NCBI GenBank assembly: GCA_964276515.1
Contig: OZ193909.1
Location: 1,984,001 to 2,048,000, forward strand
Direction: 5' to 3'
Length of the DNA: 64,000 nt
From: Gordius albopunctatus
Taxonomy: Eukaryota
Below are positions 25,401 to 61,726 of this stretch, piece after piece; positions within the stretch are counted from its first letter, which is position 1; every line of letters begins with the position of its first letter. The notes below the pieces were generated by a model that saw nothing but the letters and a program-made list of their open reading frames with translations, was not told the origin of the DNA and made no database searches. The translations under genes and the position numbers were made by a program.

Positions 25401-28400
25401 GTCAAAACAAGAAATATTTTAGTTACTTTACAAATGCTTTGATATTCTTCGTTTTCGGGGTCGTAGCAAGCTAATAGGAGTCCACCATAAACACCAGTTC
25501 TTTTTCCCTTCCCCGAATAACCGCCGATTATAACGAGGTCCATGGTATCGCCCAAATTATCGAGGTAATCTTTTTTGAGCTACAAATCACACCCAAAATG
25601 ATTCAATGAATATACCTTTAAAGATTTATAAACTAATGTTTATTTCAAATTTGTAATCTCAAAATTTGTGTCAGTTTTGATGTTGAATTTCTCTAAAAAA
25701 CTAGGAATAGGAGCTAAAAGCTGTAGACATGGGCCTAGCGTAGCCGGGATCGGAGAGGGGGTCAATTTGAAATTTTACTTAATAATTTAAATTTTGGATA
25801 GCCCTCTGGCTACCACCAAGTTTATAAGGGACATAATAGTAAAGCATAAAAAAATCAAGTATACCACCTAATACAAATATCGAATGGTTGCTGCATGACT
25901 TAATCATTTAGATAACACGACAGCCCCTTTAAAAAAGTGACTTTAGAATCACTACCCCTGCAAACATGTAAACTAGTGTAAAGCGACTCGTCGGTTTCGT
26001 TTGGTGAACCTTTATCCAATTTTGACTAAGCCGAGAGGTGGTTGACTAAGAAATGCCGAGGAAAAAGGCTTCGACTAAAACCAAAGCTCGACCAAATGAA
26101 ACCCAGCCAGCCGTTCCATCTGGAATGAAACTGATTCGCGTGATAAAAATACACCTCCTTTAAAGCGGAGAAGGTTGGTGAGATCGGAAACAGTGACTTC
26201 CACTTGGTTATTATAAACATCATTTTTTTGTTAGTAATTAGTTATAATATACCCGAGAACACTCAGATAATAATAATTAATTTGTACGCGTAATATTTCA
26301 ACTTCCATACGCTTGACTAATACTATTATATTAATTTCATCGTTTGTTGTAGTGATTATATAATTTAAAATACAAATATCTAAAATGGCCCCCAAATTAT
26401 TTCAGTGTTTTAGAGAAAAATAATTGTCGATGCACCAAGGTTAAGAAATGGTTTGATGTACAATTAAATTAATCCACTTGGTATAAAAAGGAGCAAAATA
26501 TAAATTGTATAGCAATCAGTATTCCAAAACTTATTATTTAGAGGGAAAAAGTGATTGAAAATTGGGGCAACCTTTAACCAGTTATTGGATCGCTTGGCAA
26601 TTTCGTAAGTTGAATTGGCGTTCAATGTTTTCACCATTAATCCTTCGCAATTGCCTATATAGAAATAATTTAAAAACCCCTATATAAAAGACACATTTAA
26701 GTATTCATTAACCTCTAAATCACTATACAGTGTCGGTCATTAAAACTCAAGCATAAAATTTAGTGCTAAATTAAGCAATTTTATCGACTTGATTACTAAT
26801 CTTTTTGACAAAGACGTATAGGAGTTCAAAAATTGTTGTTGTCATGTATTTATCAATTTAAAAATTTTTTTTTATTATAATGACTTTAAAATTTTTATTT
26901 TAATTAAATCAATATATGTTTGAAACAAATAATTATAATTATGATATAAAAAAATTTACATACACGACTAAAAAATATTAAAAACGCGCTATAACTAAAC
27001 GGATGGCATTGATCCGTGTATGGAAATCGTGTTGGATTTAACGATTTCCATTGTGATCTTTTGCCCAATAAAAAAGTATTCTTTGGGATCGTGTGTAATG
27101 GAGGTTATATATTTTGAAATTATTAACTTTTAATTATAACTTTATAAATTAGGAAGATAAAACGAAAACGAATTTTGGCAAAGCAAAAAAATTGTCTGCC
27201 TTTAACGGCTTCCTCCAAAAACTCCGTCACACAATCAGGGTCAGGTGGATTGTCCACGTGACGAGCGAATTCGAAACAACCGCGCGACGGGACAAAATGG
27301 TTCAACATCAACTTTCGCCTTTCCACCAGCGGTATCTTGACCAAAGACTTCCCATTCAAGTATAACAAATCGAATGCAAACACGCAAACCTGAATTTTTA
27401 TTTCCGACTGAACAGCGTCCTACACAAGTATAATTTTCGTTTGTTTTTTAAACAATGTTGCTGAAAGATAGTTATTAATTGATTGCATTACTATCGAAAG
27501 TAGGTTTACAACTATTATTAGGTTTGAAAAATAACGGAGTTCTAGCTATAAATTCGTTCGCAATTGGTTATTGCATGTTTAGAGTAGTGTTGTAAAAAGG
27601 CCTGGGTTTCACTCTCTTTTTCGAATTTTTACTAAGCCTAGAGGTAACCAAGGGTTGATCAAACAAAACAATGGTCTTTTTACAACACTAGTATACGGCA
27701 TAAAATGCGGAAATAATAATCTAGTATATTAATTGGCAAGCTATATATTGTATATAACTTAAATTGGCGTATGCATCTGCGGCCAATTAGGTATATTTTC
27801 AAAAAAATTTACGCACATTTCGTATAAATCTTAAATAAAATATATTAAAACCTTAATTTTTCACATACATATGCTATCAATCAATACAGTCAAAATTAGG
27901 GAAATTTCTATATTAGGTGGTGCACTAAAGCCAAAAATTCAAATCCGAAATTCAAATCATAGCATAATCAGACCTATGATCAAATCTAGGACACAATAAA
28001 CATGACAAAGACTTAAAAAAATCACACTTTGTCCTCCTCACCTCATAATAAAAAACGCTTGGATAAAATTATAGCAATGATTTTCAACCATGGCCGTAGC
28101 CGGAAAGTGGCAAGGAGGGGCGCCTGCCCCCCCCCTCTAAACTCAAATCTTAATAAAATTATGACTAAAATTCCCTCAAGATACAATCCTGGCTAATCCC
28201 ATGCTTTTAGCAACCGATCTCCTTCCTTCCTACCTTTGTTTTATCAATATTAATCGCCATATTCATATTAACTCGTTTTAACATTGAATATTACATGCAA
28301 AGTGCAGATTTATTAAAAAGTAGGCAAAACTTAGCTCAGTAATAACAATTTTTTTAGGAATTTACTCATCATAACCATGAAAGTAGCCAGCATTGGAATT

Positions 28401-31366
28401 AGAGGGGGGAGGCAATAATGATTTAGAGAAGGGGAGAAAAATCATCATTTTTTGAAATATCCGCCATAATTTTAATATCTAAATCTCAAAAAATTTTTGG
28501 ATTTAGAGGGGAGCAGCCCACACTCATCAAAAGAAAGAGAAAAAGTTTATGACCTTCCTTTTGCGGGTACTGAGAACTTGAAAGGGTAAAATTTGTTGTT
28601 TAACAGGATCCCAAGCCACGGTTTCCGTATCTAACACGAAGGACTTCACTTCACTTTCATCGTATACGCCGCTCTTCATCCTAGCTACCAGGTCAGGGTA
28701 TTTACTCGTGGTGTTCTCTTGGTTTCTACTGTACACATACATTTCACCCGATTCACTTAAATGTATCTTTAAGTTTGCAACACAAAAAATTTGCAAATTA
28801 AGGCATAATTTTAGTAGTAAAGATATTTAATTCATTTCAAAAATCATTCATTCTAGCAAATATAAAAGGTTATAATGAGCAATACGACATTCATCTTACA
28901 AGGAATATTTAAAAACTTGGGTTTATTATAGCATGAGGGGGGGGGGTTTGTGTTGCAAAAACGAAAGGTCTTGATTGGTCGACGTTTGGTCTGGTTTTCA
29001 AATTTGGACTAAGCCTAAAGGTCGAGCAAACAAAGTCAACCCGTTTTTACAACACTACTACTGTGAACAACTTAAATATCTAATTGAATATGAGAATATT
29101 AATCTTGTAAAATATCACAAGAGATTGAAAAAATTTAGGGCTAAATTGTTTCTATGACGTCCTCTAAGATATGAATAAATTTAGATAGTTAGTCTAACTA
29201 AGCCTATGATTTAGTAAAATTTATTAAATATTTAAGATGGCGAACCTGGGCCCTTTCACCATCGTATTTCCATTCGAATGTTAATTCGGTGTTGTCAAAT
29301 TTCTTAAAAAGTTCTTGAATACCCTTTGTTGGTTGGGCTAGCATAGGCTCCACCGGAATTCCTCAAAAATATTTACAAAAGATTTTTAGCATAAAAAGGC
29401 ATTTGAAATTTAAAAAAAATAAATAAATTGCATATATTAGATAATGCGCAAACCAGGTTGAATTTTGCAAAGGTCAGGTAAATTGGCTATTCCATCTTTT
29501 AAGATGTGTGGTATGATTAAATCAAAGGAGGGGCATTCTCTGCATATAAATATTTAAAAATATATATGTATGTTAAAAATTGTAAAATATAAAAAGAATA
29601 AAAAATTTATGGAAAACATGAATTTTAGATATTACGAAAAAGCTGATTTAAGGATTTGTGTGTTTTCGTCAACCTTCTTTTTGATAGCGTCTGCAGTCCC
29701 TGTTATCACATAGATTTAAAAAAAAGTCCATGAACAAACAATATAATAATATTAACACTAAAAATAAATTAATTTTAAACATTTATCTATAAAATTCATT
29801 CATGTTAATAAAGTCTGCCTAATTTTTAAAATTAATTTAATTTAATAAAAAAAAAGTTTGTAATCATTTGTAAAAATTACCCTTTTCATTAGGTGTAAAA
29901 GCCTGAGCCAAAGCAGCTATTACACTTTGCTGAGCCAAACCAATCCTCATTTTACCCAGGACAAATCTTATCATATATCTGGCTTCTGAATTTTGGCATG
30001 CTATAAACAATGATTTCACTTTCTGTAATTTAAGTGTTGTACTCTAAAAGTAATATGTAAATTAAGCTATAATTAATTTGAAAGTCATTTGACAACAACA
30101 TTTTATGTCAAAAAGATTTATTTTACAAGTTATTAGCTGAAATCTTGTGTATTCTAATCATATGAAAAATATATTTAAGGCATATTCATATAATTCAAAT
30201 TTTTATAAATTAGGTGAATAGTTTAAATATTAAAAAAATAAAAAATACATTACAAATGTCAATATTATTGTATAATACATACTGAATTGCCACTAATTTG
30301 TGAAATTTCTTTAAAGGTTTTGAAAACTTTGTCAACTGTAAGCCTGGGTGGTTTAACCATTGTGCTTTGATTAGATTTACTACTTTCAGCAACCAAGCCT
30401 AGATCACCTTTTACATTCAAATCTTGTTTGATTGCATTTATATTTCTCCCTTAATAAAGTATAAAAAGTTTTATTAGCATTATTTAATCATAAACCAAGT
30501 CCATGAATTATAATTTTCACTACTGGTGATATTCCAAATTGTTTTAAAAAAATTGAAAAGTCACTAAACAATATTTTAAAGAAAGCTGATTTATTATATG
30601 CATTGATTTATTTTGAATTTTAAAATAATAAAGCTAATAATTTAAAATGTTCAAATACCTGTTGCCTCTCCTATCATTTTGATAATAACAGATTCACCTA
30701 TGCCTAACTCTTTGCCTTCATATGCCGGAGCTATTATGTTTAAGCATAAGTACAAAGAAGGCAGAAGATCAAATGGAGAAAGAGCTATAGTGGACTTAAA
30801 ATAATTGCTTAGGATTGATATGATCTTTAACCTATTATTAAAATAATTCTTTAAATAAAAGTGATATTACCTAGAAGATTCTTTTTCAATCTCCTCTAAT
30901 GTTCTAGCTAAAGCAGCATAGGGAATTCTGAATAGTTTTATTCAAAATAAGATAAAAAATTGATGTAAATGCTAACTTTTGTCCTGATTCCCACACAGCA
31001 TCTGAAATTATATCATAATTTGAAACATTTGGATTATACTCATCAATGTTTTTAATGTATCTTCACTATTTATTTGTCAAAACATAATTTATTTTACTTA
31101 GTGCTCAATGAAGAGGAGTTTTCACCTATAATGGAATGTATTTTAATGCCATTTTTATCCTCGACAACATCCTTTTTTAGCTTTGATTATATATGATAAT
31201 TACAGATCTTTTAATAATATATACTTTTTTTACAGGACTACTTCTAGTAGAGCTTATGGCTCGATCATTATCATTTTCCGATAGAATCTTCTTGCTAAAA
31301 AAAGCCCTTAAAACAAAGTAAATAAATTAAGTGCAAATATAATTACGTTATTTTATTTTGAGCCAT
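22454..31366 (-). CDS. LIG1: DNA ligase 1, multi-exon
   Basis: N-terminal PIP box [78 protein letters not shown] and [16 protein letters not shown]. The last exon ends DEDED* at 22454. Confidence 0.97.
23403..23802. repeat. Near-perfect 200-bp tandem duplication in a LIG1 intron, inside a CACAGGTCTACAAAAAA-ended element (related ends at 3963, 6782, 38780)
   Basis: 23403-23601 repeats at +200 with one visible mismatch. Confidence 0.9.
24564..24900. mobile_element. MITE with CATAGACTGCTCA TIRs (P-like terminus)
   Basis: 13-bp perfect inverted termini. Confidence 0.55.
24984..25186. mobile_element. hAT MITE family A, copy 4
   Basis: Same TIRs; TSD CATTCTAC/CATACTAC. Confidence 0.9.
27585..27690. 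mobile_element. Short MITE with TAGTGTTGTAAAAAG TIRs (related copies near 22618 and 28950)
   Basis: 15-bp inverted termini; copies share an ACTAAGCCTA(G/A)AGGT core. Confidence 0.55.
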
Positions 31367-40438: not shown

Positions 40439-43400
40439 TCAATTTAGCCTGGCAATGCGTTGTTGAAGGAGAGCCCAAGCTTTAGCTATCTAAATTTAAT
40501 AATAAATATATCGTTATAATTAATTTTAAACGTCACGGTAAATATAATTTGTGAGTTTCAAAAATTAATTCTTAGTCTCAAAATATTTTTGTTAATAAAC
40601 TCATTATAAATGCGTTTTTAATTTCCTCATTATGCGAAATTTAGTATAAAAGTTGAAATTTAAAACGACAAGTTCAGTTAATTATTATTTTCTTCATTTT
40701 AAACAAATGAGTAACTTTAAAATTTATATTAATAAATTGTAAGATAATAATTACTAAAAAGCGAGAAAAATCAGGTCCGTATTGAGTTGTAAGTAAAACG
40801 TCGGCATAAGGAATTCTACTTTCGGGCCTTGGTTGAGCGTCAACTCTAAATTCTGCTTTTTCTTTCGATATTTTATTCCTCTCCATCAATCTTTCAATCG
40901 CCTAAAATCATTTCATATGTTGACTAATTCGGTCGTATTTTAAAATAAATTTAAGCGGTTAAAGTGAAATTGCGATGTTAAAAATTGGTATTTACGGTTT
41001 AATTAATATTAAATTCGCTAGAAATCCACGATTTCATATAAGTTAATATTTTAAAATCTAATATAGTAATTTATTTAGATGGAGAGAGAGAAACACGGTG
41101 GAATAAGTAGTCCATGTAGTAAAGGACAATATATAAGTCTACGTTCTTATTAGAGCTCATGACAGAGCTTCGAGATGGATGTTATAAACAACTTAAGATG
41201 TTATGCTACCGTGGCAAATAATCAATTTGTTTAGAAGTTAAATGCAAACGATTCCATTTTTCTGGCTATAAAATTCCATATAAATCCTTAATGATCTTAT
41301 ATATTTCCTATAGAACGAAGAGCGGGTGGTTGGTATTTCGCCATCAACAATTTCTGATAGAAATTATATCACAAAGCCAGGTTCAAATAGCCGAGCGTGC
41401 CGCGAATCATTTTTAAGATGGGGGAAGAACTTAGGCGTCCTCTTGTTAGTGTAATTAATTCACAAGGTTCAATATAATGCAAACAAATGTTTTTAAAAAG
41501 GCAGTTTCGCAACGACAAAACATAGAATGGGCTCAAGTTGTATTGTAATTAATAATGACCTTAAAATGACGAGAAGTTGCCTAAGGATGTTTGGAGACGG
41601 ATATAAATAGTAGTTTAGTAGACAAGAAAAGCACAAAAACGGAATTAAATTAAACAAGCTTCTCATTTCTGGAAAAAGTGGGCGACTCATGACATTGAAA
41701 CTCAGCATAGAAGGTCAACTAATCAATGAGGTGTCGGGATTTACTCTTCAAACTGATTGAACCGATGAAGAAAAGGAAGATTTGGGGAAAGAGTTGAACG
41801 AAAATGTGTAATATACACATAGTAGTGGTGTAAAGGGCGCGCATTATGGTGCGCATAAAATAGCCACACCCATATTGAAAGTGTCCTTTTCTTTTGAGGA
41901 CTTACCATGTGGGTGTGTGCAAACCGACGACTAGTATATTGTTTTGTTATAGCGAGTCGGATGTGCTAGAGATATGCAATGGGCCTGCTTAGGTCAGTCA
42001 GCCCGCCAGTTATAAAAATTTACGAGCCCGGACCCGGCCCGTATGATTTTTTTTGTATTTTTTTAAATTTTAATTTTTTTTACAGAAATGATAAACTATA
42101 AGTATGTATTACAAATTTAATAATCAATATGTAAAAATAATAAAGTATCAATAAATCCGGTCAGACGAGTTCTCATCTGTTAAAAGGCAACATACAAGAA
42201 AAATATTTTTTTACTAGCGGCACTTGTAGCCGGGTTACATAAAACCATATATACCAAAGTAACCTTTGAAACCTTGCTTAAGGTCAACATATTTTTAATA
42301 TGGCTTCTTGGCTTTACGGCCAAAATCTTTTAGGTACCCACCAAATGCAAAATCGGTTTTAAATCTTCTTCTACCCATCACTGGCAATTCTAGAAACTTT
42401 CAAAAAAGGTGAATAAAGCTTAACAATTTGTTGATTTTATTGTCTTTTGAAATAATTGTCGAGCCTTTGTTAACATAATTTTTAATTTATATCTAGGAAT
42501 TTTATAATAAAATATATTGTTTTTAACAGAATTAGTGACTACTTGCTTCTCAATTATTCCGTGGCGGGCCTATTTAATAAATAATAGGGTAGGCCCGACC
42601 CGAGGCTCAGAATTCTGGGGCCGGTTCTAGGGTCACACCTGCAGGTCTCTAGTTGAGGCCAGAGGATTAATCGGAGCTCAAAATCTATAAACTTTTTTGC
42701 CCCCTCCCCAATCTAAATCCTGGCTATGCCCGTGCTCGCCCGATTGTAATATTTATTTCCTTTAACAGTGGAGGTTTTAAAAGACGCGCTATATAATAAC
42801 ACTAATACCTAAAGTAGATGGATGGAATATCTTACATTTTTTATCAACACTTGCACACGGAATGAAAAAATCTATAAAGCAGACGAAAATATCATTTACC
42901 ATGTCACGTGGTACGAAGGAAAGCCAAACCTCGTGACACATTTTTGACCAATCGGCTTCGATTAATAGTGATGCCTCTACAAACACCACGCGCTCGCGTC
43001 GTACGATCGCTTCATTAATTTTTCGAGAAACCATCTTAGCTAATTTCGGCCAAACCTTACGATTCAAAATTTGTCTCTTCTCCTGAACATAATTTAAATA
43101 TTTTTCATTTCAAACTTGACATATTTTCTTACCATTCGGCTGTATATCATTAATCGTTTGGACAGTATATTTTACTTTTATGATTCTTGCTAATTTTAAT
43201 CTTATATAATATAACCTCGATACTTTTAGGCTTATAAAATATAAATGTTAATTTAATATTATTTATGTAAAATGCTATAACAGTTCATTTTTGCAATATC
43301 AATCTTTAAAAAAACCTATGCTTATCCACGAGGGTTGGGAGCAAATGGTGTAGTAATGATTAAGGTACGGGCAAAAATAGGATGATCCAGAAATATAACA

Positions 43401-46118
43401 AATTAACATTAAGGGGAGGGGAAAATTACCTCTCCTTGCCCCCCCCCCACCTCTTTTAAACACACGTTCTCATTTATTTTTTCCAAATTAAAAGGTTTAT
43501 CGATTCAATAACACGAAAATATAAAAAAAGGTGGAAAACCTTTTAAATGTAACGCGTCAATTAAGCATGTAAAAATCGCAAAAAAACAAAAAACATCAAA
43601 AAAATTAAAATTGAAATTTAAAGAAAAAACTTCGTTTTCAAACACGACCGCAGCCAGCTTCCATCGATCTGTTTTGCCTCTAGGATTCAGAATATCGGAT
43701 CCGAAAAGCTTGACCAACTCCGTGGTCACCCCGGTGAGGAATTGGCCAGAGTCTTCGTATAGGCCGTGGGTTAAGTGATCGCAATCCACACAACAGACGT
43801 CTTTATTTTGTTGCGCTAAGAGATGCGCTAACGTAGATTTACCGCTACATATCCCACCGGTCAGACCAATTATGTAGGGTGGGTATCTGAGGGTCGTTAA
43901 TCTTTCCATTTTGGGATTTGCTCTTTCTTCCTCGACCTACTAAAATGATTGGTCTTTTGCTTACTTTACTTATAAATCCCTATAAGAGACCATAAAAGCC
44001 CGGCCCGGCCAAATGTCTTAAATTTTAATTTTTGGACAGGACCTCGAGGAAAAGAACTTATGAACAAATTTAAATGTTAAAAGGGAGTGCAGTGTAGTTG
44101 CTATATTTAATCAAACACACTACGGTGATAAGATTCGGGCGATTCGGGCATAATAAAATTAAAAACATATTATATTATTTTGTTACCTTTTTATTAGATT
44201 GTATATCGAGAATGCTTAAAATTTTAAAAAAATATAATTTTGCCACCCCTTCCAAAATTATTTTTCCAATCTTTGCACGACTCCATTTCTTTAAGATCCT
44301 TAGCTACGTTGAAAGAATTGAAATATTTATATTTATGTAGCCTTTTCATTGTTCGCAATAATCATGTTTGTCATCTAAACTTAAAACATAGAGTTGTTAA
44401 ATTGCTAACTTTATTCAAAATGTGAGATGGGAAAAATTTACTTTACGATCAATGAAGGTTCCCAGCAACGCTTTTCTGATGTGGGACGAGCTGAGCTTGT
44501 TCTTAAGCCTGTCTTCTTCGCTTAAACTCTGAAAATTAAATAATTTTTCTCCACCTTCAAGTATATAATCTACAACCTCCAAATGAAGTGGCTTCATATT
44601 CTAGTTAAAGATAAAATAAATTCAGTAATTTAATGAAAAAAACCAAAAGCATTGCTATGTTGAAGTTTATTTTTAAGGTTTTTTTGGGAAGACAATTAAG
44701 ATTCTGAGACATATTTTGTATTTATAATATTTTAGTTAGAGATTAAGTTTATATGGTACTAAAATTAAAGATTATGAATGTTAATTAACCTGGGCAAAGA
44801 TTAAAATAAAAATTGATTTAGATTAAATTCATGTTTAATATCAAGGCCAAAGAACAAGATTCCCTTTGAATATTAAAGCAATAGATATGTGTTTAGAGAT
44901 TTAAATTTGAAGTTCATATAGATTCAAGATACGTTTTTTATTCTCTCTTCATTAATCTTTTTGCCTCCTTTAATGGTCTCGTTTGTTACAACACAACACT
45001 CAACTTCAGGCATAAAAATGGCAGGACCATAAGTATCATACAATGGCACAATTAAATACCTTAAAATCCATCACAAAATAATTAAATTTATGTAAGTCAT
45101 TTACAGCTAAACACATTTATATTATAAATTATACTAATAAAACTCTACAAATAAAAAAACTATTTTTGCATTCAGTTATAAATTTCTTATCTACCTCAAT
45201 TTTTTCAACCATTTATTTTAAAGCACAAAATTTAATTTGATAACAGGCTAAGCATAAAATATAATTTTATTTCTGAGCTTCTTTATAACAATGTGAAGAT
45301 ACTATTTCTTTACAATTATAAGATACCTTAAGGATGGGTTGACACTTTGCAAATAGTTGCGCACAGCATCAATCCTATAATCAATTGGCTGAATTAGTTC
45401 ACGTAATTCTTTTTCTTCAAATATATTATATATTAGGAGAATAATTATTTTACTTTTAATCATTGGCCCATCACTAACACCACAGACAACTAAACCTTTT
45501 GCAATTGATGATGCATAGGTTAATAAATGTTTATGACCCTCGTGCAATCTATCAAAAGTACCACCAAGTGCCACTCCTTCATATTTTGGAAAATTTTTGG
45601 CATCTTTGCTACTACATGTAAAACAGAGAAATTCTTGTTGTTACATTCACCAGAAGTGTTCATTCAATGACAGTGAGTTAAGTGAAAATATTTAAAAAAA
45701 TTTAACAAGCTTAAGAAATTTATGTAAATCCTAACTTTTGTCCTGTTTCCCACACAGTATTTGAAATTATATCATAATTTGAAACATTTGGATTATATTG
45801 ATAAATGTTTTTAATGTATCTTAACTATATATTTGTTTAAACATTATTTATTTTACTTAGTGCTCAATGGAGAAGAGTTTTCACATATAATTGAAAATGT
45901 CTTAATGTCATTTTTCTCCTCTACAACATTCTTTTTTAGCTTTATTTTACTTTATAATTACATATCTTTTACAAATAAAATACTTTTTTACAGGACTACT
46001 TTTAGTAAAGCTTATGGCTCGATCATTATCATTTTCCGAAAGAATCTTTTTGGCACTTAAACAAAGTAAGTAAACAAATTAAATACAAATATAATTACGT
46101 TCTTTTATTTTGCGCCAT
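40439..46118 (-). CDS. COASY: Bifunctional CoA synthase (PPAT + dephospho-CoA kinase), copy A, with LIG1-derived 5' exons
   Basis: GGTFDRLHEGH, DTYGP, VTNET..G..IN, LSSSHIR, IGLTGGICSGKST, EASLLIEADW..CHEVW and final exon IAKAWALLQQRIARLN*. Exons from 45611 downward are open. 45725-46197 is a copy of LIG1 30965-31445. The 5' structure is inferred. Confidence 0.85.
41967..42651 (-). mobile_element. Deleted hAT derivative in a COASY-A intron (orthologous copy in COASY-B at about 53690-57144)
   Basis: TAGAGATATGCA / TGCAGGTCTCTA termini, GCCCG repeats, and a degenerate transposase tail LCNPATSAAS. Confidence 0.7.
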
Positions 46119-46196
46119 CGTTTTGCACAGATGTGATCTAGGAATTAATAAATTGCAAAGGTTTTTTATTTAAAAAACCGCGAGTGATCTCAAAAT

Positions 46197-46400
46197 CGGT
46201 GACCCGTCAACTTGCCGAAAACCATCTCGCTGAATTTAATGTCCCCCGGTTAAAAAAGGTCCCCCATTTTGTGATTGGTTGAATAAGGGACGATTTTAAA
46301 TTAGGGGATTGAATAAGGGACGATTTTAAATTAGGGGATCATTTTTAACCGGGGGACATTAAATTCGGCGAGATGTTTTTCGGCGAGTTGATAGGGCACC
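46197..46400. mobile_element. Foldback MITE with about 65-bp TIRs (CGGTG...CACCG); related partial copy at 46792-47045
   Basis: Long inverted termini with AT dinucleotides on both sides. It sits exactly where LIG1 homology stops. Confidence 0.75.
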
Positions 46401-47046
46401 GATCGAGATTGTGGAGAGGTTGAAGGGTTTCTTGTTAAGTCTCGATCCTTTCATTAGTGTCATTTGGTGACGAATATAGTGCCCAATTTATCCAGTTGAG
46501 TTATAACCTTGACTCCGGTACTACAGGGTTTAGGGGGAGGAAAAAAATTCGCCTCCCTTGAAATTCGAAGTCACCAGTTTTAGTGAAAGGTGTTGGAATA
46601 TAATTTATTAAGGGGAAATAATAACAATGATAACGAATCTATAAATGGCGAGTTTATATATCGATAGATAACAATAACATTCAAATGAAAGTTAATTCTG
46701 TGTGTGTATTCTTTCTATTTTCACCTTGTGCGTATTACAACCAAATCTCTTTCAAGATAACTGTAATTTGTTTCCCTACAGACTAATAAAACGGTGCCTT
46801 ATCAACTCGCCGAAAACAATCTTCTCGAATTCACCCTGGGATGGGATATTAACGAATATTTCCCCATTATCATAAAGAAGCCCCTAAATTGAGTAACTTT
46901 TATACTAATTATCAATTTTATTATAAAAAACACCTAAATAATAACTTTAATCCAGAATTGAATGATTAATATGCTTTTGGGGGGGGGGGGACATTTTCTA
47001 ATTGGGGGAAATTTTTTAACATTGGGACATTCAATTCGGCGACTTA

Positions 47047-48060
47047 ATATGGTGGTCCCTTAGAGCCAGAAATATACCCGAAGGATATGTTCGACTTATC
47101 AAGGAAATGTATAATGGCGCGGTTGTATCTGTTAGGACTACCGTAGGAGTAACGAAACCCTTCCGAATAATGATCGGACTACATCAAGGATCAGCGTTAA
47201 GCCCATTCTTGTTTAATCTAATTATGGATACAATAACAAAGGACTTGCACAAGCCAGCCCCTTGGACTATGCTATATGCCGACGATATTGTCCTATGCGA
47301 TGAAACAAGAGAAGGGGTTTTTCATCAGGCGAAAAAATGGTCAGAACGTTTTTCGGAATTCGGGTTAAAGGTCAGCGAGAAGAAAACGGTTTACATGCAA
47401 ACGATGGGCGGTAGTCCGCGAATGCACAAAAATGACGGTCCAATGTACACGGAGGTTGATAAGTTCATATATCTTGGCTCGCTATTACATCAAGAGGGAG
47501 GATGTACCGCCGAAGTCCATTCTCGGATCAAGAAAGCATGGCTCAAGTGGCGCAGCATCTCCGGTGTCATGTGTGACAAGAAGATACCAATTTGGTTGAA
47601 AAGCAAGGCGTACAAAACCATCGTGCTACCGGTCTTGCTTTACGGGAGCGAAACATGGTCTGTAACCACCGCGGAGGAGAAACTCTTGCAAGTCACGGAA
47701 ATGAGAATGGTGCGATGGAGCTTAGGCTACACCAAGCTGGATCGCATGACGAACGAATCCTTGATAACAAAGATGGGTATACAAGCGACTAAGGACTTCT
47801 TAAGAGAAAATCGACTGCGGTGGTACGGCTATGTATTACGAAGAGACCAATACAATGTCACACGCCGACCGCTGGAGATGGACGTGCCTGGAAGAAGAGA
47901 AAGGGGCAGACCACGTGCCACCTGGAAACGACTGGTCGAAAAGGATATGGACGTCAAACAGATGGAAATTGGCATGGCATTTACGCGACTCAGATGAAAG
48001 AGGCTGCTGAGAACGTACCCCACGTCCGTGGGATTTTCAACAGGATAAAGAAGAAGAAGA
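47047..48060 (+). mobile_element. 5'-truncated RTE LINE (RT C-terminal half)
   Basis: ORF 47107-47997 with GLHQGSALSP, YADD, LLYGSETW and RGRPR; (GAA)n tail; clearly related to 34824-37848. Confidence 0.93.
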
Positions 48061-51918: not shown

Positions 51919-54900
51919 TCAATTTAGTCTGGCAATGCGTTTTTGCAGGAGGGCCCAAGCTTTAGATATCTAAATTTAATAATAAATATTTTCGTTATGG
52001 TTAATTATAAATGTTATGATTTATAAATTCAACCTATAAAATTCAAAAATTATACTTTGCTGATAAAATATTTTTATAAATAAACTCATTATAAATGCGC
52101 TTTTAATTTCCTCAATATGCTAAATATAATAAAAGTTGAGATTTGTAATAACAAGTTTTTTTTCGTTTTAATGGAATATTAACTTTAAAATTTATATGGA
52201 TGTATTGTAAGATAATAATTACTAATTCGCGAGAAAAATCAGGTCCGTATTCGGTCGTAAGTAAAACGTCAGCATAAGGAATTCTACTTTCGGCCCTTGG
52301 TTGAGCGTCAACTCTCAATTCTGCTTCTTCTTTCGAAATTTTATTCCTTTCCATCAATCTTTCAATCGCCTAAAATTATTTCATAATTTGACTAATTCGG
52401 TCGTATTAAAAAATAAATTTAATCAGTTAAACTGAAGTTGCGAAGTTTAAAATTAATGTCTAATTTGGTCCTTCTATATAAAAATGACTTGTGGGACAAA
52501 AAAATAATTAATTTTAAACTGGTCAGAAGTCCATGAATCCATATAAGTTTATTACTTTTAAAAATAATAACTATTTATATTAATTTATTTAGAGAGAGAG
52601 AGAAACAAGGTGGAATATGTGCACAATGTAGTGTAAGACAAATATAAAATTTTTGGTTCATATTGGCTTGTCAAAGGCGTTGGTATAGCCTTTGTCTTTG
52701 AACAAGAGCTAGCGGGTTCAAATCCCGCTTTCTCAACTTTCCTTTAAAATATATCACATCGTCAACACGGCTAACAGGCCTGGATAGCCGAGCATCACCC
52801 CTCATCCAAATATTTAAAGAAGCTGATCACCTTAGTGTAACAAACAGCTATTGCAAATATAGGCTCATCAGTAAGACAGAGCTTCGAGATGGATGTTTAT
52901 AAAAACTAAATTAACTTATAAACAATTTAAGGTGTTATACTACTGTGGTAAATAATCAATTTGTTTAGAAATTAAATGCAAACGATTCCCTTTTCTGGAT
53001 ATAAAATTCTAAATCCGTGGTGATCTTGTATATATATTTCATTATAACGAAGAGCGGGCGGATGAAATTTCGCTAACAACAATTTCTAATGGAAATTATA
53101 CACAAAGCCAGGTCTAAATAGCCGAGCGCTACGGCAAATGGCATGGTAGTCGTCAGTGCAATTAAGTCACATGGTTGAACATACTGCAAACAAAAAAGGC
53201 AGTTTCTTAACAACAAAACTTAGAATGGGCTCGAGTAGTATAGTAATAATGACCATAAAATAACGAAAAGTTGCCTATACAGCATGTATTCTTAAATCTA
53301 AACGGAAGAACATAATCAAGAATGTTTTGAGACAAATATGCATAGTAATTTAGTGGACAAGAAAATTACAAAAACGGAATGGAATTAGACCAGCTTCTCG
53401 TCTCTGAGCAAAAGTGGCCAACTCATACATTGAAACTCAGCATAGAAGGTACACTAATCAATGAAGTGACGGAATTTACTCTTCAAACTGATTGAACCTA
53501 CGAAGAAAATGAAGATTTGCGGAAATAGTTGAACGAAACAATGTGCAATATACATAATTGTGACGTAAAGGGAGCGCCGAAAGTCTGCGAGAGTGATATT
53601 ATTGTGCGCATAAAATAGCCCCGCCCACGTCGAAAGTGTCCTTTCCTTTTGAAGACTTTCTTTTGTCATAGAGAGTGGGATATGTTGAAGACCCGCAACG
53701 GGCCTGTTTAGGTCAGTCAGCCGCCCGTTTAAAAATTTAAAAGCCCGGACCCGTTAAAATATTAAATTATACACCCGGGCCCGGCTCAATAATTTTATAG
53801 AAAGCCCAGGTCAAGTCCGTATAATTTTTTTCTTCTTTTTTTAGATTTTATTTTTTTTACAGAAATGATAAACTATATGTATGTGTTACAAATTTTAATA
53901 ATCAATATGTGAAAATAATAAATTATCAATAAAATCCGGTCAGACGAGTTCTCTGACTGATAAATGGCGACCTAATTGATAGCGATTAAGAAGCCAGACA
54001 ATTTACTAAGACCTATCGCTATTGGGGGAGTTTTTAGGAGGATTATTTCTAAAATAATATGATATAAAATCAAACCGATCCTTTCCACTAACCTAAGTCC
54101 ACATCAATTAGGTTTTGGAATAAAGGGTGGCTGCGAAGCTGCTAGTCATGCCGCTAGGCTAGCCCTCGAAGGCATACCATCGGATCATTGCATGGTCAAA
54201 CTAGACTTTGCCAACGCTTTTAATAGCCTTCGTAGAGATGTCCTTATCGAAAATTTTCTCGAGAAATTTCCGGAGTTCCATAACTACATCTTATTAAGTT
54301 ATGGCTCAACATCCTTTTTAAGATTTGGGGATTTTAAAATAAATTCATCTGAAGGTATCCAACAAGGTGACCCATTGGGTCCGCCATTATTTTGCTCAGG
54401 CATCCAATGTTTAGTGGAAAAAATATCGCACGAATGCGACCTAACACTAAATATTTGGTACTTAGACGATGCCACCCTTTGTGGTCATCCTCGCGAAGTT
54501 TTTAAAGCCATCAAAATTATAAAGGAGTTCGAACCAATTTTAAAACTAAAACTAAACGAGACCAAATGTGAGATCTTTCAATCCCCTGATTACTCCTTAT
54601 ATCCACACATTACCCCTTTTTTTAGCAATCGAGAAAGACGCTATGTGCCATCTTGGATCGCCTATAGGTGGTAGAGTTGGACTCGCAACTTATTTGGAGA
54701 AAAATCTCTCTATTTTAAACTCAAAATTAGATCTCTTAAAGTGTTTGCCTTCACACCACGGTTTTTACATAATGAAAAACTATTTTAATATTTCAAAAAT
54801 TCAAGACTGTTTTCGCTCTTCAAGTGCTTTTTTACACTCGGAAATTTTAAACCTCTTCGAACAGAATATTAAATCTATTTTATAATCTATTTTAAATATA

Positions 54901-57900
54901 AAGTTCAATACTTATAGCTGGTTACAAGCTTCCCTACCAAACAAATCGGGTGGTTTAAGGATTCGCTCACCTGCCGCAATATCTCTAGTCTCGTTTATTT
55001 CATCTTACAAATCGGTACAAGATACCATTTTTAAGTTGTATCCTGTTAAAGAAGACCCGCTTTTACCCATTGCTTTAGCTATTAGGGAAAACAATACCAA
55101 TCCCGGAACACCTTTGCCACAAACCTCACGACAAAAAGATTGGGATGCCGGACTTGTGTTGCACTCCGTTGATTATCTAATTTCGAGTAGCGATGCAAGT
55201 CAGTGTTCTAATTTAAGGTCGTTTTTGTTTGATGGCTCAGGTCACGAATGGCTAGACGTCTACCCAAGCTGTCTCACCGGGATGATGCTGGAGGACTCGG
55301 AACTTTTGTACTCCATAGCTCTCAGGCCAGGGGTAAAATTTTCGAAGCCATTTATTTGCCGAAATTGCAGCATACTTGTAGACGAACAAGCCAGGCATCC
55401 CTTACACTGCCTGGCAAACAAATTCAAATATGTTAGACACAATAAGGCCAATACCTTAATTCAAAGTGCACTGAAGAGAGCAAATATCCCATCCATCTTG
55501 GAGCCATCGGACCCCTCCTTGGAGGGACGTATGCGTCCTGATGGATCTTCTTTAGTCCCATGGAGCAATGGTCTTCACCTTAAATGGGACTTCACGTGTA
55601 TTGACCTATTTGCCCCCTCTAACTACAACAATGATTCTTTAGCTGTCGCAGAGGGGCGGAAAACTAATAAATACAAAGCCCTAGCATCTTCAAACATTTT
55701 TATTCCATTGGTTGCTTCGTGTTCAGGCACCTTTGGCAAACAGGCCTTAGCCTTTTTTAAAGAGGTAGGAAGACGTTCTCCCCCGTCTAAACATTCGGTA
55801 TCCTTTTAACTTAAACAACGACTTGGTATTCTTATAGCCAAGTACAATTTTAAATCGTTCGCGGATCCTTGGCCAATTTTGGAAGATCCCCTCGATGATG
55901 ATATATTAGAATAGTGTATTATTTTATTTGACGCATTTTGTCTTTTATATTTTATGTATTTATATTATATTACTGTCAACGGATTTTTAACAAATAAACT
56001 TTTAAAATAAATAAAAAAAAAATTCTTTTACTAGTGGCACTTGTAGCCGGGATACATAAAACCATATATGCCAAATAAACCTTTGAAACCTTAAAGGTCA
56101 AAATATTTTTAATATGGCTTTTTGGCTTTACGGCCAAAATCTGTTAGGTATACCCACCCAATGCAAAATCGGTTTTAAATCTGCTTCTACCAATCACTGG
56201 CAAATCTAGAAACTTTTAAAAAGGTGAATGGACCCTTAACAATTTGGTGATCTTATTTAGAGGCCTGCAAATTCCCTTTTTTTCAACCCGACCCGACCCG
56301 AAAGCGTTTTTATATTTTCAGCCCGAACCCGACCCGACCCAAAAGCGTTTTTTTTATATAAATTTTGCAAATAAAATAAGTATAAAATTTTAGATCCACA
56401 TAATAATAAAACTTACTTTTTTGTTGATTCATGAATATTTAGTTATATCTTTATGTAGTTAAATTTATGATTTACTCTATAGACTATAAACAATAATAAA
56501 TAATCATTTGTTAATATTTTACCTTTCGTGATTCAACTTTGAATTGAATATTTAATTGTATCTTTATGTAGTTAAATTTATAATCTACTCTATAGACTAT
56601 AAACAATAATAAATACTCATTTGTTAATATTTTACCTTTCGTGATTCAGCTTTAAATTTAAATTTTCCTCCAAATTAAACGAATTAAGAAATTGAAAAGG
56701 AAATTGATTCTATGAATGAATGAATATAATTAGTTATACAATTCGATATTGTATAACTAAAATTATAGATAATAGCATTAATTTAACAAATACGTTTCGT
56801 TCATTTTGTAATGTAAGATTCATATCCTTTGACCTGACTCTATAAATCTAACCCGACCCGACCCGAATGCATTCTAAAATTTTCAACCCGAACCCAAAAA
56901 TTTTTAACCCTAACCCGACCCGAGGTCGGGTCCGATCGGGTCGGGTGACCCGTGCAGGCCTCTAATCTTATTGCCTTTTAAAATAAGTGTCGAACCTTGG
57001 TGAACATAATTATTAATTGTTATCTAAATATTTTATAATATGATATATTTATAGGTCCGGCCCGCCCCGGATTTATGATATTTAAGGCCGGAGATTGGCC
57101 CAGAATTCTCAGGCCAGGTCTCGGGTGACACCTGCAGGTCTCTAGTTGAGCATTAATCGGAGCGCATAATCTATAAACCTTTTTGCCCCCCCCCCCCCAA
57201 ATCTAAATCCTGGCTACGCCCGTGCTCGCCCCATAGTAATTTATATTCCTTTTATCAGCGGAGGAGGTCTTAAAGGATGCGCTATATAACAAACAACATT
57301 AATACCTAAGATAGATAGATGGAATATTTTCCATTGCTTATCAACAACGAAGTGGAAAAATACCTATAAAAAGCAGACGAAAATATCATTTACCATGTCA
57401 CGTGGTACGAAGGAAAGCCAAACCTCGTGACACATTTTCGACCAATCGGCTTCGATTAAAAGTGACGCCTCTACAACCACTACGCGCTCGCGTCGTTCGA
57501 TCGCTTCATTAATTTTTCCCATAACCATCTTAGCTAATTTCGGCCAAACCAAACGATTCAAAATTTGTCTCTTCTCCTAAACATATTTCAAATATTTTTC
57601 ATTTCAAATTTAACATATTTTTCTACCATTCGGGTGTATATGGATTAATCGTTTGGACAGTATATTTTACTTTTATGATACTTGATAATTCAAGGCTTAT
57701 ATAATATAAACTCGATAATTTTAGGCTTACATATTACAAATGTTAATTTAATATGATTTGTGTAAAATGCTATAACAGTTCATTTTCGCAATATCAATCT
57801 CGGAAAAATCATATGCTCATCAATGAGGGGTAGGGAGCAAAAGGTATAGTAAAAATTTAAGGACGGGCAAAAACATGATGATTCAAAAATGTAACAAATT

Positions 57901-60900
57901 AATAATATTAAGGAGGAGGGGGGACAGTTACCTCTCCTTGCCCCAACTCCATGTTTACACAGTTCTCAATGAATTTTTCCAAATTAAAAGGTTTATTGAT
58001 TCAATAACACGGGAGCAGAAAAAAGAGCGCAAAACCTGTTAAAAGGATAACGCTTCAATCAAGCACGTTAAAATCGCGAAAAAACGAAAAAACAATAAAA
58101 AAAACGAATTAAAATTGAAACTTAAAGGAAAAACTTCGTTTTCAAACACGACACCAGCCAGCTTCCTTCGATCTATTCTGCCTCTAGGATTCAAAATGGC
58201 GGGCCCGCAGAGCTTAACCAACTCCGTGGTCACTCCGGTCTCGTATTGGCCTGAGTCAGTGTATAGGCCGTGGGTTAAGAGATCGCAATCCACACAACAG
58301 ACGTCATGATTTTGTTGCACCAAGAGATTGGATAACGTAGATTTACCGCTACATATGCCCCCGGTCAGGCCAATTATGTAGGGTGGACATTTAAAGCTGG
58401 GTAATCTTTCCATTTTGGGATTCTCTCTTTCTTCCTTGACGTTCTAAAATGATTATTTTAACTGGTTTTTCGTTTACTTATAGGTACACAACCCGAGAAA
58501 AATCTCGGGACGAGAATTTGAAAAATGGAGTCGAGATCGAGACGAGATTTTTTGGGCGAGATCTCGACTTTTTATTGATCGTTAGATTTAGGTTAATTAT
58601 TGTGTATTTTAATTTGCAAGATTTACATTTAAGGTATTAAGTGTAAATCAATATGTATGGAATATATTTGATATTAAAAAAATTCCTAAGTGTGCTGTCC
58701 TTGCACCCGAGAATTTATATATATGCTACGATTTTTATTATATGCATCTTTATTGCGTTCACCCTATGCTACGTTTATTATTAGCCATCCTTATCGTTTT
58801 TTATCACCATGATTTAGCGATTATTAATATTATATTACCTCGCGATCACTCGTAATTAATTAATTTTTTTTTGTGTAGAAAAGAAATAAATGGAGCCATT
58901 TTATCGCGTATAATTCCGTCGCGTCGTTGAAATAAATAAATAAATTCTATTATTAATAATTAATTGGAGGATGTATTACTAAGTGTAGTAAATATTGTAT
59001 ATTTTTGCAAAAATCTTTAAATTTACCTAAGTATAGTTGACCCTTAGGGTATGTGAATAATTTTATAATATCTTTATCACATATTTGTATTAATAGCATT
59101 ATTAAGTTTTACAAAATTTTGGGCGCTTAGAATGAGTTCTGGTGGAATAGTAAATATTAGGTCCTAAAGCATATTTGAATTTTCTAGTTACTCATCCTGC
59201 ATGATGCGGCAATTATAAATTGATGGTCAATCAGTTTGAATAATAAGTATACAAGCTAAACTAAGGTGGCTCTAGGCTGCTCAACTCCCTCAAGACTCTC
59301 ACTGCTCACAGCTATGACTGCATTACCTCTAAATCCAACATTTTTTTGAAGTTTATTCTGGCCCTAAATTTTAAAAAATGTTCCTTTTGCCCCCCCCCCC
59401 TTGCCCTTCAATTCCAATTCTGGCTACACCCATGGCTGTATCTAGAGTTGTTAAATTGCTAACTTTCTTCAAACTCCAGACGCGGGCACGCACACTGAGT
59501 TGTTTAATATGCGCGTTAGCACAATATGTGCTCGCTTTTGGTACACTAGGCAGAGCAGTAGCATATAAAAATGCTCGAGGGCCGAGCAGAAACTCGAGCA
59601 GGTGGTAGCTGGAGTTGAAGAAAGTTAGCAATATAACAACTCTAGTTGTATCTTTCATATTAATTGCTATGCAATTTATGTTTATTTACTTACATATTTT
59701 TCGAAGCCCATTTTACGGTTCATATATTTTAGAGGAGTCCTTAAAAAGAATGTGAATTAATTTCACGTAAATCAAGTCAGGTGTAGGATGCACATTGCTT
59801 GCTTATCAACTTTAAATAAGTGAATACCGTTTTTCAATATTGATTTGTCGAATGTGTTATGTTTGTTATATATAGGTAATTCAGTTAAAATATATAACCA
59901 TAACACGGGCAGAGCCAGCATTGGGATTAGAGAGGGGCAAAATGATCCTTTTTTATAATTTTTGTCATAATTATAATATTTAAACAAATTTTTGGATTTA
60001 GAGGGGGGACAGCCGATCTTCCCTGCCCCCCCCCCCCGGCTACGCACATGAACTATAAAGCCGAGTCAAACATCCTTTATAGAATATTTTTAAAAGTAAT
60101 AAATGTAAACATGGTTAAAAATGAAAAAATGATGATCGTCATTGAAGATCTCGGTACACATGCTTTCCTTAAATTCGAAAAAACCCTTATTTAGTGCTAA
60201 ATTATGTTGTAATCTAATCACACATTATTAGCTAATTCGTGATAATCTCTGTCATAAGTGATAGAACACAAGATGTTAGATATTTTTAGGCTACAAAAGT
60301 CGGATTTTACTATTAGCGAGGATTTGAATCTCAAGGGTACGATGCCTGATAGAAAGTAAATTGTTTCACATGTTTGAGATATTGAAAAAGTATAATTTGA
60401 ATCATAAATTTCGTATGTGGAAGCAAGGAGGGGTTAATACCTCACTATGTTTAAATAATTTACTTCTCATAATTTTTAAAACTTTGCTAATTTTTATTTT
60501 ATGTAGGATGGAAAAAAAATTACTTTATGATTAATGAAGGTTCCCAGCAACGCTTTTCTGATGTGGGACGAGCTGAGCTTGTTCTTAAGCTTATCTTCTT
60601 CGCTTAAACTCTGCAAATTACCAACTTTATCTCCACCTTCAAGTATATAACCTACAACTTCCAAATGAAGTGGCTTCATATTCTAGTTTATGATATAATA
60701 AATTCAGTAATTTAATAAAATATTTAAGTGAAAGTATGCATGTTGGGTTGAAGTTTTTTTAAAATTCTTTTGGTGTATTTATAATATTTTAGTTAAGGAT
60801 CATTTTATGTGATGCTAAAATTAAAGATTTTGGGTGTTGATAAATGTTGACAAAAATTAAATATTTGCATCTAAATTCAATTCATGTTTAATGCCAAGGC

Positions 60901-61726
60901 TAAGGAACATGGTTATTTTTGGAATATTAAAGCAATACTTATTTACATATTTGAAAGATTTCAATTTGATAATCCTATAAATTTAAATTACTCTTTTTAT
61001 TCTCTCTTCATTAATCTTTTTGCCTCCTTTAATGGTCTCGTTTGTTACAACACAACACTCAACTTCAGGCATAAAAATGGCAGGACCATAAGTATCATAC
61101 AATGGCACAATTAAATACCTTAAAATCCATCACAAAATAATTAAATTTATGTAAGTCATTTACAGCTAAACACATTTATATTATAAATTATACTAATAAA
61201 ACTCTACAAATAAAAAAACTATTTTTGCATTCAGTTATAAATTTCTTATCTACCTCAATTTTTTCAACCATTTATTTTAAAGCACAAAATTTAATTTGAT
61301 AAGAGGCTAAGCATAAAATATAATTTTATTTCTGAGTTTCTTTATAACAATGTGAAGATACTATTTCTTTACAATTATAAGATACCTTAAGGATGGGTTG
61401 ACACTTTGCAAATAGTTGCGCACAGCATCAATCCTGCAATCGATTGGTTGAATTAGTTCACGTAGTTCTTTTTCTTCAAATTTATTAAATCCTAAGAGAA
61501 TAATTATTTTACTTTTAATCATTGGCCCATCACTAACGCCACAGACAACTAAACCTTTTGCAATTGATGATGCATAGGTTAATAAATGTTTATGACCCTC
61601 GTGCAATCTATCAAAAGTACCACCAAGTGCCACTGCTTCATATATTGGAAATGTTTTGGCATGATCTTTGTTAGTGCCATGTAAAACAGAGAAATTCTTG
61701 TTGTTACATTCACCAGAAGTGTTCAT
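51919..61726 (-). CDS. COASY: Bifunctional CoA synthase, copy B
   Basis: Same exon set as copy A, all open. In-frame ATG (MNTSGEC) at 61726; ends ISKAWALLQKRIARLN*. Confidence 0.92.
52665..52850 (+). mobile_element. tRNA-derived SINE (absent from the paralogous COASY-A intron)
   Basis: B-box GGTTCAAATCC; matches 7785-7972; empty site near 41150. Confidence 0.75.
53973..56022 (+). mobile_element. 5'-truncated CRE-like non-LTR retrotransposon (RT + restriction-like endonuclease), disabled
   Basis: LRPIAIG, KLDFANAFNS, GIQQGDPLGPPLF and WYLDD motifs; CxxC..HPLHC, RHN, RPDG..WDFT and E.RK..KY; polyA tail; contains a frameshift and stops. Confidence 0.88.
56258..56964. mobile_element. hAT MITE family B
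   Basis: TAGAGGCCTGCA TIRs, a perfect 8-bp TSD ATCTTATT, ACCCG repeats, and an empty site near 42434. Confidence 0.92.
59443..59644. mobile_element. hAT MITE family A, copy 5
   Basis: Same TIRs; TSD GCTGTATC/GTTGTATC. Confidence 0.9.

What the first reader, a model, noticed from the sequence alone, without database searches (positions are those of the whole stretch)
45611..46197. Chimeric gene: duplicated LIG1 5' region and first four exons placed in front of CoA synthase copy A
Seen: 45725-46197 is a diverged copy of LIG1 30965-31445 (upstream region, ATG, exons 1-4, splice sites kept). Similarity between COASY-A and COASY-B stops one base upstream of the COASY ATG. In copy A that ATG (45663) is out of frame with the PPAT domain because of an indel. 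The same changes create a pyrimidine-tract-plus-AG acceptor (TTTCTCTGTTTTACATGTAG|TAG, exon from 45611) that copy B lacks. LIG1-like exon 4 (45819-45736, phase 2) splices into it in frame: ..VWETGQN-SKDAKNFPKYEGVALGGTFDRLHEGH. Exon 2 is one A short relative to LIG1. Frame is restored by skipping exon 3, or by a new AG at 45951-45950 (34-nt intron), or the missing A is a homopolymer error. All downstream COASY-A exons stay open despite strongly diverged introns. Inference: a young, possibly expressed fusion gene that puts CoA synthesis under LIG1-type (replication-linked) control and gives it a new N-terminus.
Basis: partly seen in the sequence, partly recalled or inferred. Interest (0 to 1): 0.88.

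Follow-up and report, generated by a model that had tools for sequence, protein, structure and literature searches.

The report
Ligase-headed CoA synthase from tandem duplication
A duplicated piece of an animal chromosome placed the start of the DNA ligase I gene in front of a spare copy of the coenzyme A synthase gene, creating a hybrid gene that likely worked for a long time but now carries a one-letter deletion that has probably disabled or weakened it.

Summary
The chimera is real DNA. Read-derived contigs from two runs match the assembly letter for letter at the missing A; one listed contig bridges the LIG1/COASY junction. Gene order (COASY-B, LIG1 head + COASY-A, LIG1, all minus strand) and equal non-coding identity (85.6% vs 84.5%) point to one tandem duplication, a known route to chimeric genes. 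COASY-A was under purifying selection: dN/dS 0.42 against B, no indels in exons 2-8.

The exon-2 deletion is not an error. With the best-scoring splice sites the frame ends after 31 codons, and the rescue routes look weak or unusual. No RNA was available, so expression is untested. Most likely a once-working fusion, now disabled or attenuated (0.42); a live fusion 0.25. New member of a known kind; interest 0.5.

The parts
46119..46197 (-). Copy of the LIG1 upstream region (likely core promoter/5' UTR), 66/79 identical to 31367-31445
   Evidence: promoter function inferred
46195..46403 (.). Inverted-repeat (MITE-like) element abutting the copied upstream region; arms 46195-46270 and 46328-46403, 87% complementary
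46099..46118 (-). LIG1-derived exon 1 with ATG; Ile to Arg change in the PIP motif
45984..46055 (-). LIG1-derived exon 2; 9-nt in-frame deletion removing the PIP Phe-Phe; 1-nt deletion in the terminal A run (45984-45989)
   Evidence: deletion present in contigs of both runs
45857..45939 (-). LIG1-derived exon 3; out of frame under ancestral splicing; in frame from alternative acceptor (exon start 45949) or alternative exon-2 donor (exon end 45992)
45736..45819 (-). LIG1-derived exon 4, phase-2 donor
45703..45712 (-). Duplication junction: LIG1 intron 4 joined to sequence about 45 nt upstream of the COASY ATG; an 8-nt sequence shared by the two parents lies near both breakpoints
   Evidence: bridged by a contig
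45615..45664 (-). Former COASY start (ATG 45663) in a block identical to B; out of frame through a 1-nt deletion at about 45615; intronic in the fusion model
45454..45611 (-). COASY-A exon 1 behind new tandem acceptors (exon start 45611 or 45608, both in frame); holds the PPAT motif GGTFDxxHxGH
44933..45414 (-). COASY-A exons 2 (45414-45327) and 3 (45059-44933); 45376-44935 is a near-identical tract with B that includes intron 2
44442..44600 (-). COASY-A exon 4 (end of PPAT and linker)
43631..43939 (-). COASY-A exon 5 (start of DPCK); first triplet TAG, bypassed by the distal acceptor (exon start 43936)
40439..43082 (-). COASY-A exons 6-8 (43082-42900, 40901-40755, 40489-40439), open to the same stop as B
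51919..61726 (-). COASY-B, intact, 425 aa from ATG 61726 (true start not proven); head-to-head with THOC5
22454..31366 (-). LIG1, intact, 18 exons, 717 aa, N-terminal PIP motif QNKITAFF

Best explanation
A copy of the LIG1 upstream region and exons 1-4 sits in front of a second CoA synthase gene, likely made by one tandem duplication, and this hybrid was likely translated as a LIG1-leader/COASY fusion for most of its history but is now probably disabled or strongly reduced by a one-base deletion in exon 2. Steps: (1) Shown: gene order COASY-B, LIG1 head + COASY-A, full LIG1 on one strand, with equal non-coding divergence. Inferred: the ancestor had COASY just upstream of LIG1, and the unit from just before the COASY ATG to LIG1 intron 4 was duplicated. 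(2) Shown: COASY-A lacks the upstream region that B shares with THOC5. Inferred: it depends on the LIG1-derived promoter. (3) Shown: from the exon-4 donor, every AG at 37 nt or more lies beyond the old ATG, and there is no other usable in-frame ATG before the PPAT motif. Inferred: the productive route was the new in-frame acceptor at 45612, using the LIG1 ATG. (4) Shown: the PIP motif is destroyed. Inferred: this avoided dragging the enzyme onto PCNA. (5) Shown: exon 2 lost one base. Inferred: the main mRNA now encodes 31 residues, and full-length enzyme would need a weak or unusual splice.
For: Structure matches read-derived contigs. Non-coding identity 190/222 for LIG1 vs copy and 913/1081 for COASY introns 3, 5, 7, Fisher p=0.76. 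dN/dS A vs B is 0.42 over 402 codons (p=7e-5) and 0.37 for exons 5-8. No indel in exons 2-8 against 10-13 per 250-560-nt intron; in neutral simulations of exons 4-8, P(no frameshift, at most 1 stop) was 0 to 0.04 with indels allowed. Of the exon 5-8 differences that could be polarised with 15 outgroups, 11 fall on A and 9 on B, giving omega_A about 0.45, P=7e-6 against neutrality. Acceptor 45611 scores 3.3, equal best among the AGs 37 nt or more from the donor. The 40-nt patch holding it stayed different from B while both flanks are near-identical. For recent decay: ancestral sites outscore rescue sites. A carries radical changes at conserved DPCK columns (I286T, R289W, L308K, V333F, P211T; B numbering) against mainly one in B (F to C at 275). 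Neutrality over the last 5-20% of A's branch is compatible with the lesion count (P 0.13-0.85).
Against: No transcript evidence either way. The splice matrices rest on only 24 introns, and real acceptors score as low as -4.3 in leave-one-out, so a -3.3 rescue acceptor is not excluded. The LIG1-derived exons show no significant constraint (p=0.12; neutral P 0.09-0.35), so past translation as a fusion is inferred, not shown. If all amino-acid changes are put on A, neutrality is not rejected on substitutions alone (P=0.10), and without indels the simulation gives P=0.26. The two intergenic stretches keep almost no collinear similarity (best 36 nt, E=0.001), so the single-duplication model needs turnover by mobile elements. 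The perfect identity that begins at the old ATG also fits long use of that ATG.
Confidence: 0.42

Rival explanations
1. Live fusion gene. The LIG1 promoter drives an mRNA in which exon-3 skipping, the 45949 acceptor, the 45862 acceptor or the upstream donor at 45992 restores the frame. The distal exon-5 acceptor removes the stop, giving a 463-495 aa enzyme with a PIP-less LIG1 leader.
For: 16 enumerated splice combinations give more than 150 codons; 8 of them are full length. The distal exon-5 acceptor outscores the proximal (3.6 vs -1.1), and a pyrimidine at -4 favoured distal use in human minigenes (PMC3250501, passages). A UAG removed by a tandem acceptor is documented for CFTR E831X (PMC2951375, abstract). 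Three lesions, each with a nearby bypass. A keeps 79 of 100 near-invariant columns vs 81 for B.
Against: Rescue sites score below the ancestral ones. A 34-nt intron is below the local minimum of 37. Exon skipping between 44- and 37-nt introns is unusual where short introns define splicing (general knowledge). AT-rich DNA with tiny introns offers chance bypasses easily.
Confidence: 0.25
2. Promoter or leader capture only. COASY-A was translated from its own ATG 45663, with the LIG1 piece as promoter and untranslated leader (or a cryptic promoter near the junction). It was killed recently by the 1-nt deletion at 45615, and the new AG is a coincidence.
For: Identity with B starts at the ATG and runs 49-50 nt. 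Apart from the indels, the changes beside the deletion are single-base codon changes. Pairwise dN/dS of 0.5 in the LIG1 exons is what a neutral copy of a constrained gene would give. If the LIG1 exons had joined at B's upstream AG, their ORF would have stopped 1 nt before the COASY ATG.
Against: Eight ATGs precede 45663 in a leader from the LIG1 promoter. The kept exon-4 donor would splice the ATG out unless a 26-nt intron is used. Gene conversion, evident nearby, can explain the identical block.
Confidence: 0.22
3. Pseudogene since birth, kept looking intact by gene conversion from COASY-B.
For: Conversion is evident in exons 1-3 (intron 2 265/267; P=4e-17 at background divergence). At birth no in-frame acceptor existed in the B-like sequence. 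Exon 4 has dN/dS 0.98.
Against: Exons 5-8 are not homogenised (dS 0.23, as high as the introns), yet they have no indel and dN/dS 0.37.
Confidence: 0.08
4. Assembly artefact: mis-join or homopolymer errors.
For: Two of the lesions are single-base losses in homopolymers. The runs may be the sample behind the assembly. The contig expected over the 45615 deletion (45546-45644) is not among the 16 of 1,391 pieces shown.
Against: The junction, the A run and the exon-5 TAG are covered by contigs with 0 differences, and no indel row is listed. The copy is 15% diverged from LIG1. LIG1 and COASY-B read open over 3,429 coding nt.
Confidence: 0.02

Closest known systems
Chimeric genes formed by tandem duplication (Drosophila yakuba; PMC5460883, passages read)
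   Same: A duplication that does not respect gene boundaries joins the 5' part of one gene to the 3' part of a neighbour and leaves both parents intact. That paper counts 76 chimeras among 1,116 duplications, 24 of them with raised expression, and calls loss the prevailing fate.
   Different: Those are young segregating variants. This one is about 15% diverged, shows long purifying selection, captures nearly the whole downstream coding region, and needed a newly made acceptor to be in frame.
Animal bifunctional CoA synthase (COASY; Pfam PF01467 + PF01121)
   Same: PPAT then DPCK domains in both copies.
   Different: No support for the usual N-terminal domain in B (best model 50.4 vs 50.0 bits). 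A would carry a LIG1 leader. None of 204 COASY/DPCK hits matched the LIG1 N-terminus.
DNA ligase I N-terminal PIP box (yeast Cdc9; PMC1865074, passages read)
   Same: Window LIG1 has QNKITAFF at residues 3-10; 12 of 19 long homologues have such a motif.
   Different: The copy reads QNKRTAKK, so the hydrophobic anchor is gone. That paper notes that instability from Cdc9 overexpression needs the PIP box but not catalysis, which gives a reason for selection to remove it (inference).
Stop codon bypassed at a NAGNAG acceptor (CFTR E831X; PMC2951375, abstract only)
   Same: A TAG as first triplet of an exon forms a second acceptor.
   Different: There it is a disease allele shown by RNA; here it is an untested prediction at the PPAT/DPCK boundary.

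Membership tests
Tandem-duplication chimeric gene | 5' part of one gene joined to 3' part of another at a real genomic junction | tested here: met
Tandem-duplication chimeric gene | Both parents intact, flanking the chimera, same strand, in the predicted order | tested here: met
   COASY-B 61726-51919 and LIG1 31366-22454
Tandem-duplication chimeric gene | Both halves of equal age | tested here: met
   85.6% vs 84.5% non-coding identity, p=0.76
Tandem-duplication chimeric gene | Collinear similarity of the duplicated intergenic DNA | tested here: inconclusive
   Only the ends match; the middles hold mobile elements; best collinear hit 36 nt
Tandem-duplication chimeric gene | Ancestral single-copy arrangement in a sister species | not testable with these tools
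   No close relative found: best identities 54% and 59% in protein searches; 9 distant LIG1 loci
Expressed fusion gene | Spliced transcript joining the two parts | not testable with these tools
   No RNA holder listed
Expressed fusion gene | Open frame under the ancestral, best-scoring splice sites | tested here: not met
   Stop after 31 codons
Expressed fusion gene | Purifying selection on the LIG1-derived exons | tested here: inconclusive
   dN/dS 0.50 over 83 codons, p=0.12
Bifunctional COASY | PPAT and DPCK domains with core motifs | tested here: met
   Pfam hits for A and B; 79 and 81 of 100 near-invariant columns kept
Bifunctional COASY | Enzyme activity of the A product | not testable with these tools
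   needs assay
Dead-on-arrival pseudogene | Neutral evolution of the coding region since duplication | tested here: not met
PIP-box protein (copy) | Q-x-x-hydrophobic-x-x-aromatic-aromatic (pattern recalled, checked on homologues) | tested here: not met
   Present in LIG1, absent in the copy

The most novel reading that the evidence does not exclude
A living fusion gene in which a replication-gene promoter drives a second CoA synthase. Selection rebuilt it after duplication: it deleted the PCNA anchor, made an in-frame acceptor that resists ongoing gene conversion, and placed a stop-containing tandem acceptor exactly between PPAT and DPCK. One 3-nt splice choice would then switch between a PPAT-only and a bifunctional enzyme in dividing cells.
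Probability: 0.2. Interest if true: 0.75.

Novelty: new member of a known kind. Interest (0 to 1): 0.5.

Why it matters
Most tandem-duplication chimeras are seen young and are lost. This one is old enough to show the later steps in one 40-kb locus: a new acceptor, loss of a potentially harmful motif, conversion that spares the junction, and possible decay. If it is expressed, it would tie the last two steps of CoA synthesis to a replication gene's promoter. That is of interest because COASY is reported to act in mitosis (PMC5847545, search listing only). One RT-PCR settles it. If it is dead, it is a clean record of how a working chimera is built and lost, mainly of interest to gene-evolution specialists.

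Tried and rejected
No whole genome is held. RNA search: no RNA holder listed; two runs of unknown kind from one study. Their contigs cover introns like exons and show no exon-exon joints, so they serve as DNA checks only. Contigs were laid on 43700-46200 only; exons 6-8 of A, COASY-B and LIG1 were not checked against reads. No close outgroup for branch-specific dN/dS, so polarisation used amino acids of 15 distant homologues: 42 of 48 differing sites could be scored, and 6 were dropped for too few aligned outgroups. An N-terminal domain for COASY-B in exon-like pieces at 61776-62282 got no profile support; they may be untranslated leader exons. The TCGCGG motif shared by both upstream regions occurs 10 times in the window against 6.9 expected (18 of 100 shuffles reach 10), so it is no evidence of cell-cycle control. 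The 64-nt match 46531-46588 / 31762-31825 is inverted, so it is not a collinear remnant. The 8-nt sequence shared near both breakpoints occurs in 2% of random window pairs: suggestive only. Earlier scan notes: nothing listed. Literature searches listed no LIG1-COASY chimera; only the top 7-15 rows of each were seen, and none of the 15 rows mentions COASY. One search listed nothing clearly on LIG1 promoter control. No supplements were read. No structure was predicted.

Full report
Setting. The window is AT-rich eukaryotic DNA with short introns and many mobile elements. The best named protein matches are mostly animals at no more than 59% identity, and the organism was not identified. Three genes matter, all on the minus strand. 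From high to low coordinate they are COASY-B (61726-51919, 8 exons, 425 aa), the chimera (46197-40439) and LIG1 (31366-22454, 18 exons, 717 aa); both parents read open. THOC5 lies head-to-head with COASY-B on the plus strand (Pfam PF09766 hits below the curated cut-off).

Observation. Self-BLAST gives 45712-46197 vs 30953-31445 at 85.1%, and 44402-45703 vs 60484-61773 at 86.8%. The two matches end about 8 nt apart, so the junction is at 45703-45712: inside LIG1 intron 4 and about 45 nt upstream of the COASY ATG, not at the ATG.

Is it real? Two public runs of one study hold the stretch. On 43700-46200, a contig of X1 spans 45635-45791 across the junction. Contigs of both runs span 45768-46038 across the A run and 43700-44200 across the start of exon 5. 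All have 0 other letters and 0 gaps, and no indel row is listed. The contig ends 45347-45466, 45635-45791 and 45768-46038 are exactly those predicted from the assembly by 31-mer sharing. Only 16 of 1,391 pieces were shown, and the piece over the 45615 deletion is not among them, so that deletion is supported only indirectly. The runs may be the assembly's own sample, and contigs drop rare alleles.

Origin. Duplicating in tandem the segment from just upstream of the COASY ATG to LIG1 intron 4 yields exactly the observed order, with both parents intact. Non-coding identity is 190/222 for the LIG1 part and 913/1081 for COASY introns 3, 5 and 7 (p=0.76), as expected for one event. Against this, the two intergenic stretches (5.6 and 8.9 kb) share almost nothing collinear. 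Both contain retroelement sequence, and COASY intron 4 shows the same turnover. An 8-nt sequence shared by the parents near both breakpoints may have seeded the event (2% by chance). I put the tandem origin at about 0.85. This is the known route described for Drosophila (PMC5460883, passages).

Was COASY-A functional? Pairwise dN/dS is 0.42 over 402 codons and 0.37 for exons 5-8, where dS (0.23) shows no homogenisation; exon 4 is 0.98. Exons 2-8 have no indel, while introns 3, 5 and 7 have 11, 13 and 10. Neutral simulation of exons 4-8 gives P of 0 to 0.04 for the observed state when indels are allowed, and 0.26 when they are not. With 15 homologues, 13 differences deviate in A and 10 in B of 42 scored; in exons 5-8 it is 11 vs 9, implying omega_A near 0.45 (P=7e-6). 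If every change is put on A, P is 0.10. A was therefore very likely translated for most of its life. Its deviations hit more conserved columns than B's, which hints at recent relaxation.

How could it be translated? With intron 4 retained, eight ATGs precede ATG 45663. Every AG 37 nt or more from the exon-4 donor lies beyond that ATG; the only usable one before it would need a 26-nt intron. No other in-frame ATG reaches the PPAT motif. The acceptor at 45612 is in frame and equal best in score (3.3), and a second one 3 nt on is also in frame. Both lie in a 40-nt patch with 7 substitutions and 2 indels, between blocks near-identical to B, as if conversion across it was not tolerated (inference). 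In the copy the PIP motif QNKITAFF has become QNKRTAKK through a substitution and a 9-nt in-frame deletion. In yeast the PIP box, not catalysis, is needed for the instability caused by ligase overexpression (PMC1865074, passages), so its loss would be favoured if the leader was translated (inference). Still, the 83 LIG1-derived codons show no significant constraint.

Is it alive? The exon-2 deletion is real. The ancestral sites give a 31-codon ORF and score best. The routes round it are a donor 8 nt upstream (0.2 vs 7.3), an acceptor 10 nt upstream (-3.3 vs 3.2; 34-nt intron, local minimum 37), a far acceptor in exon 3, or exon skipping. The matrices come from 24 introns and are noisy. Exon 5 begins with TAG; the distal acceptor scores better (3.6 vs -1.1), and bypass of a stop at such a site is documented (PMC2951375, abstract; PMC3250501, passages). 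The proximal choice would give a PPAT-only protein. The lesion count fits neutrality over the last 5-20% of A's branch. The sequence alone therefore cannot separate a live gene from a recently dead one, and I lean to disabled or attenuated.

Gene conversion. Intron 2 is 265/267 identical between A and B. In X1 the contig over exon 3 has 1.97 times single-copy depth, as expected for two identical copies. The contig 45039-45376 has 1.36 times, against 1.80 expected from the assembly and 1.40 if only half of the B alleles carry the tract; there is also an unpredicted break at 45068. This hints at a polymorphic A-to-B conversion tract. It is weak: contig depth is not a copy number, and X2 shows about single-copy depth there, which fits neither expectation.

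Verdict. A real, old, selected chimera of a known kind. The pairing LIG1/COASY did not appear in the search listings seen or among 204 COASY/DPCK hits. Disabled or attenuated fusion 0.42, live fusion 0.25, own-ATG gene recently killed 0.22, dead from birth 0.08, artefact 0.02. Replication-linked expression is untested. Interest 0.5.

Noticed in passing
window 44935-45376 vs 60994-61435: Near-identical tract between COASY-A and B including intron 2; contig depth and break points in run X1 hint that only part of the B alleles carry it.
   Followed up: partly
window 61776-62282, minus strand: High-scoring splice sites between THOC5 and the COASY-B ATG (donor after 61993, acceptors at 62282 and 62025); possibly untranslated leader exons of COASY-B. 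No support for the usual N-terminal COASY domain, so this animal's COASY may lack it.
   Followed up: partly
window 62328-64000, plus strand: THOC5-like gene head-to-head with COASY-B; its start was not fixed.
   Followed up: partly
window 22454-31366: LIG1 has a very short N-terminal region (about 65 aa before the conserved domain; 717 aa in all vs 814-1012 in the 12 homologues used) and a GC-AG intron after exon 13.
   Followed up: partly
window 23403-23802: 200-bp tandem duplication, 99.5% identical, in LIG1 intron 16.
   Followed up: no
window 31509-31654 and 32445-32590: 146-bp direct repeat, 99.3% identical, just upstream of LIG1; it may mark a recent insertion next to the LIG1 promoter.
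   Followed up: no
window 12290-13846: Open 518-aa hAT-type transposase with a Hermes DNA-binding domain.
   Followed up: partly
window 5931-6413 and 8845-9579: Fucosyltransferase (GT10) C-terminal exon; the upstream 244-aa ORF has no Pfam hit and may be its N-terminal part.
   Followed up: partly
window 34800-37800, 47020-48060, 54063-55809: Retroelement copies: one with endonuclease and in-frame stops between COASY-A and LIG1, a fragment upstream of the chimera, and a different one in COASY-B intron 6.
   Followed up: partly
window 2546-2749, 7133-7337, 15577-15735, 24983-25187, 59442-59646: A roughly 205-bp MITE-like family with terminal inverted repeats, five copies at 91-99% identity.
   Followed up: no
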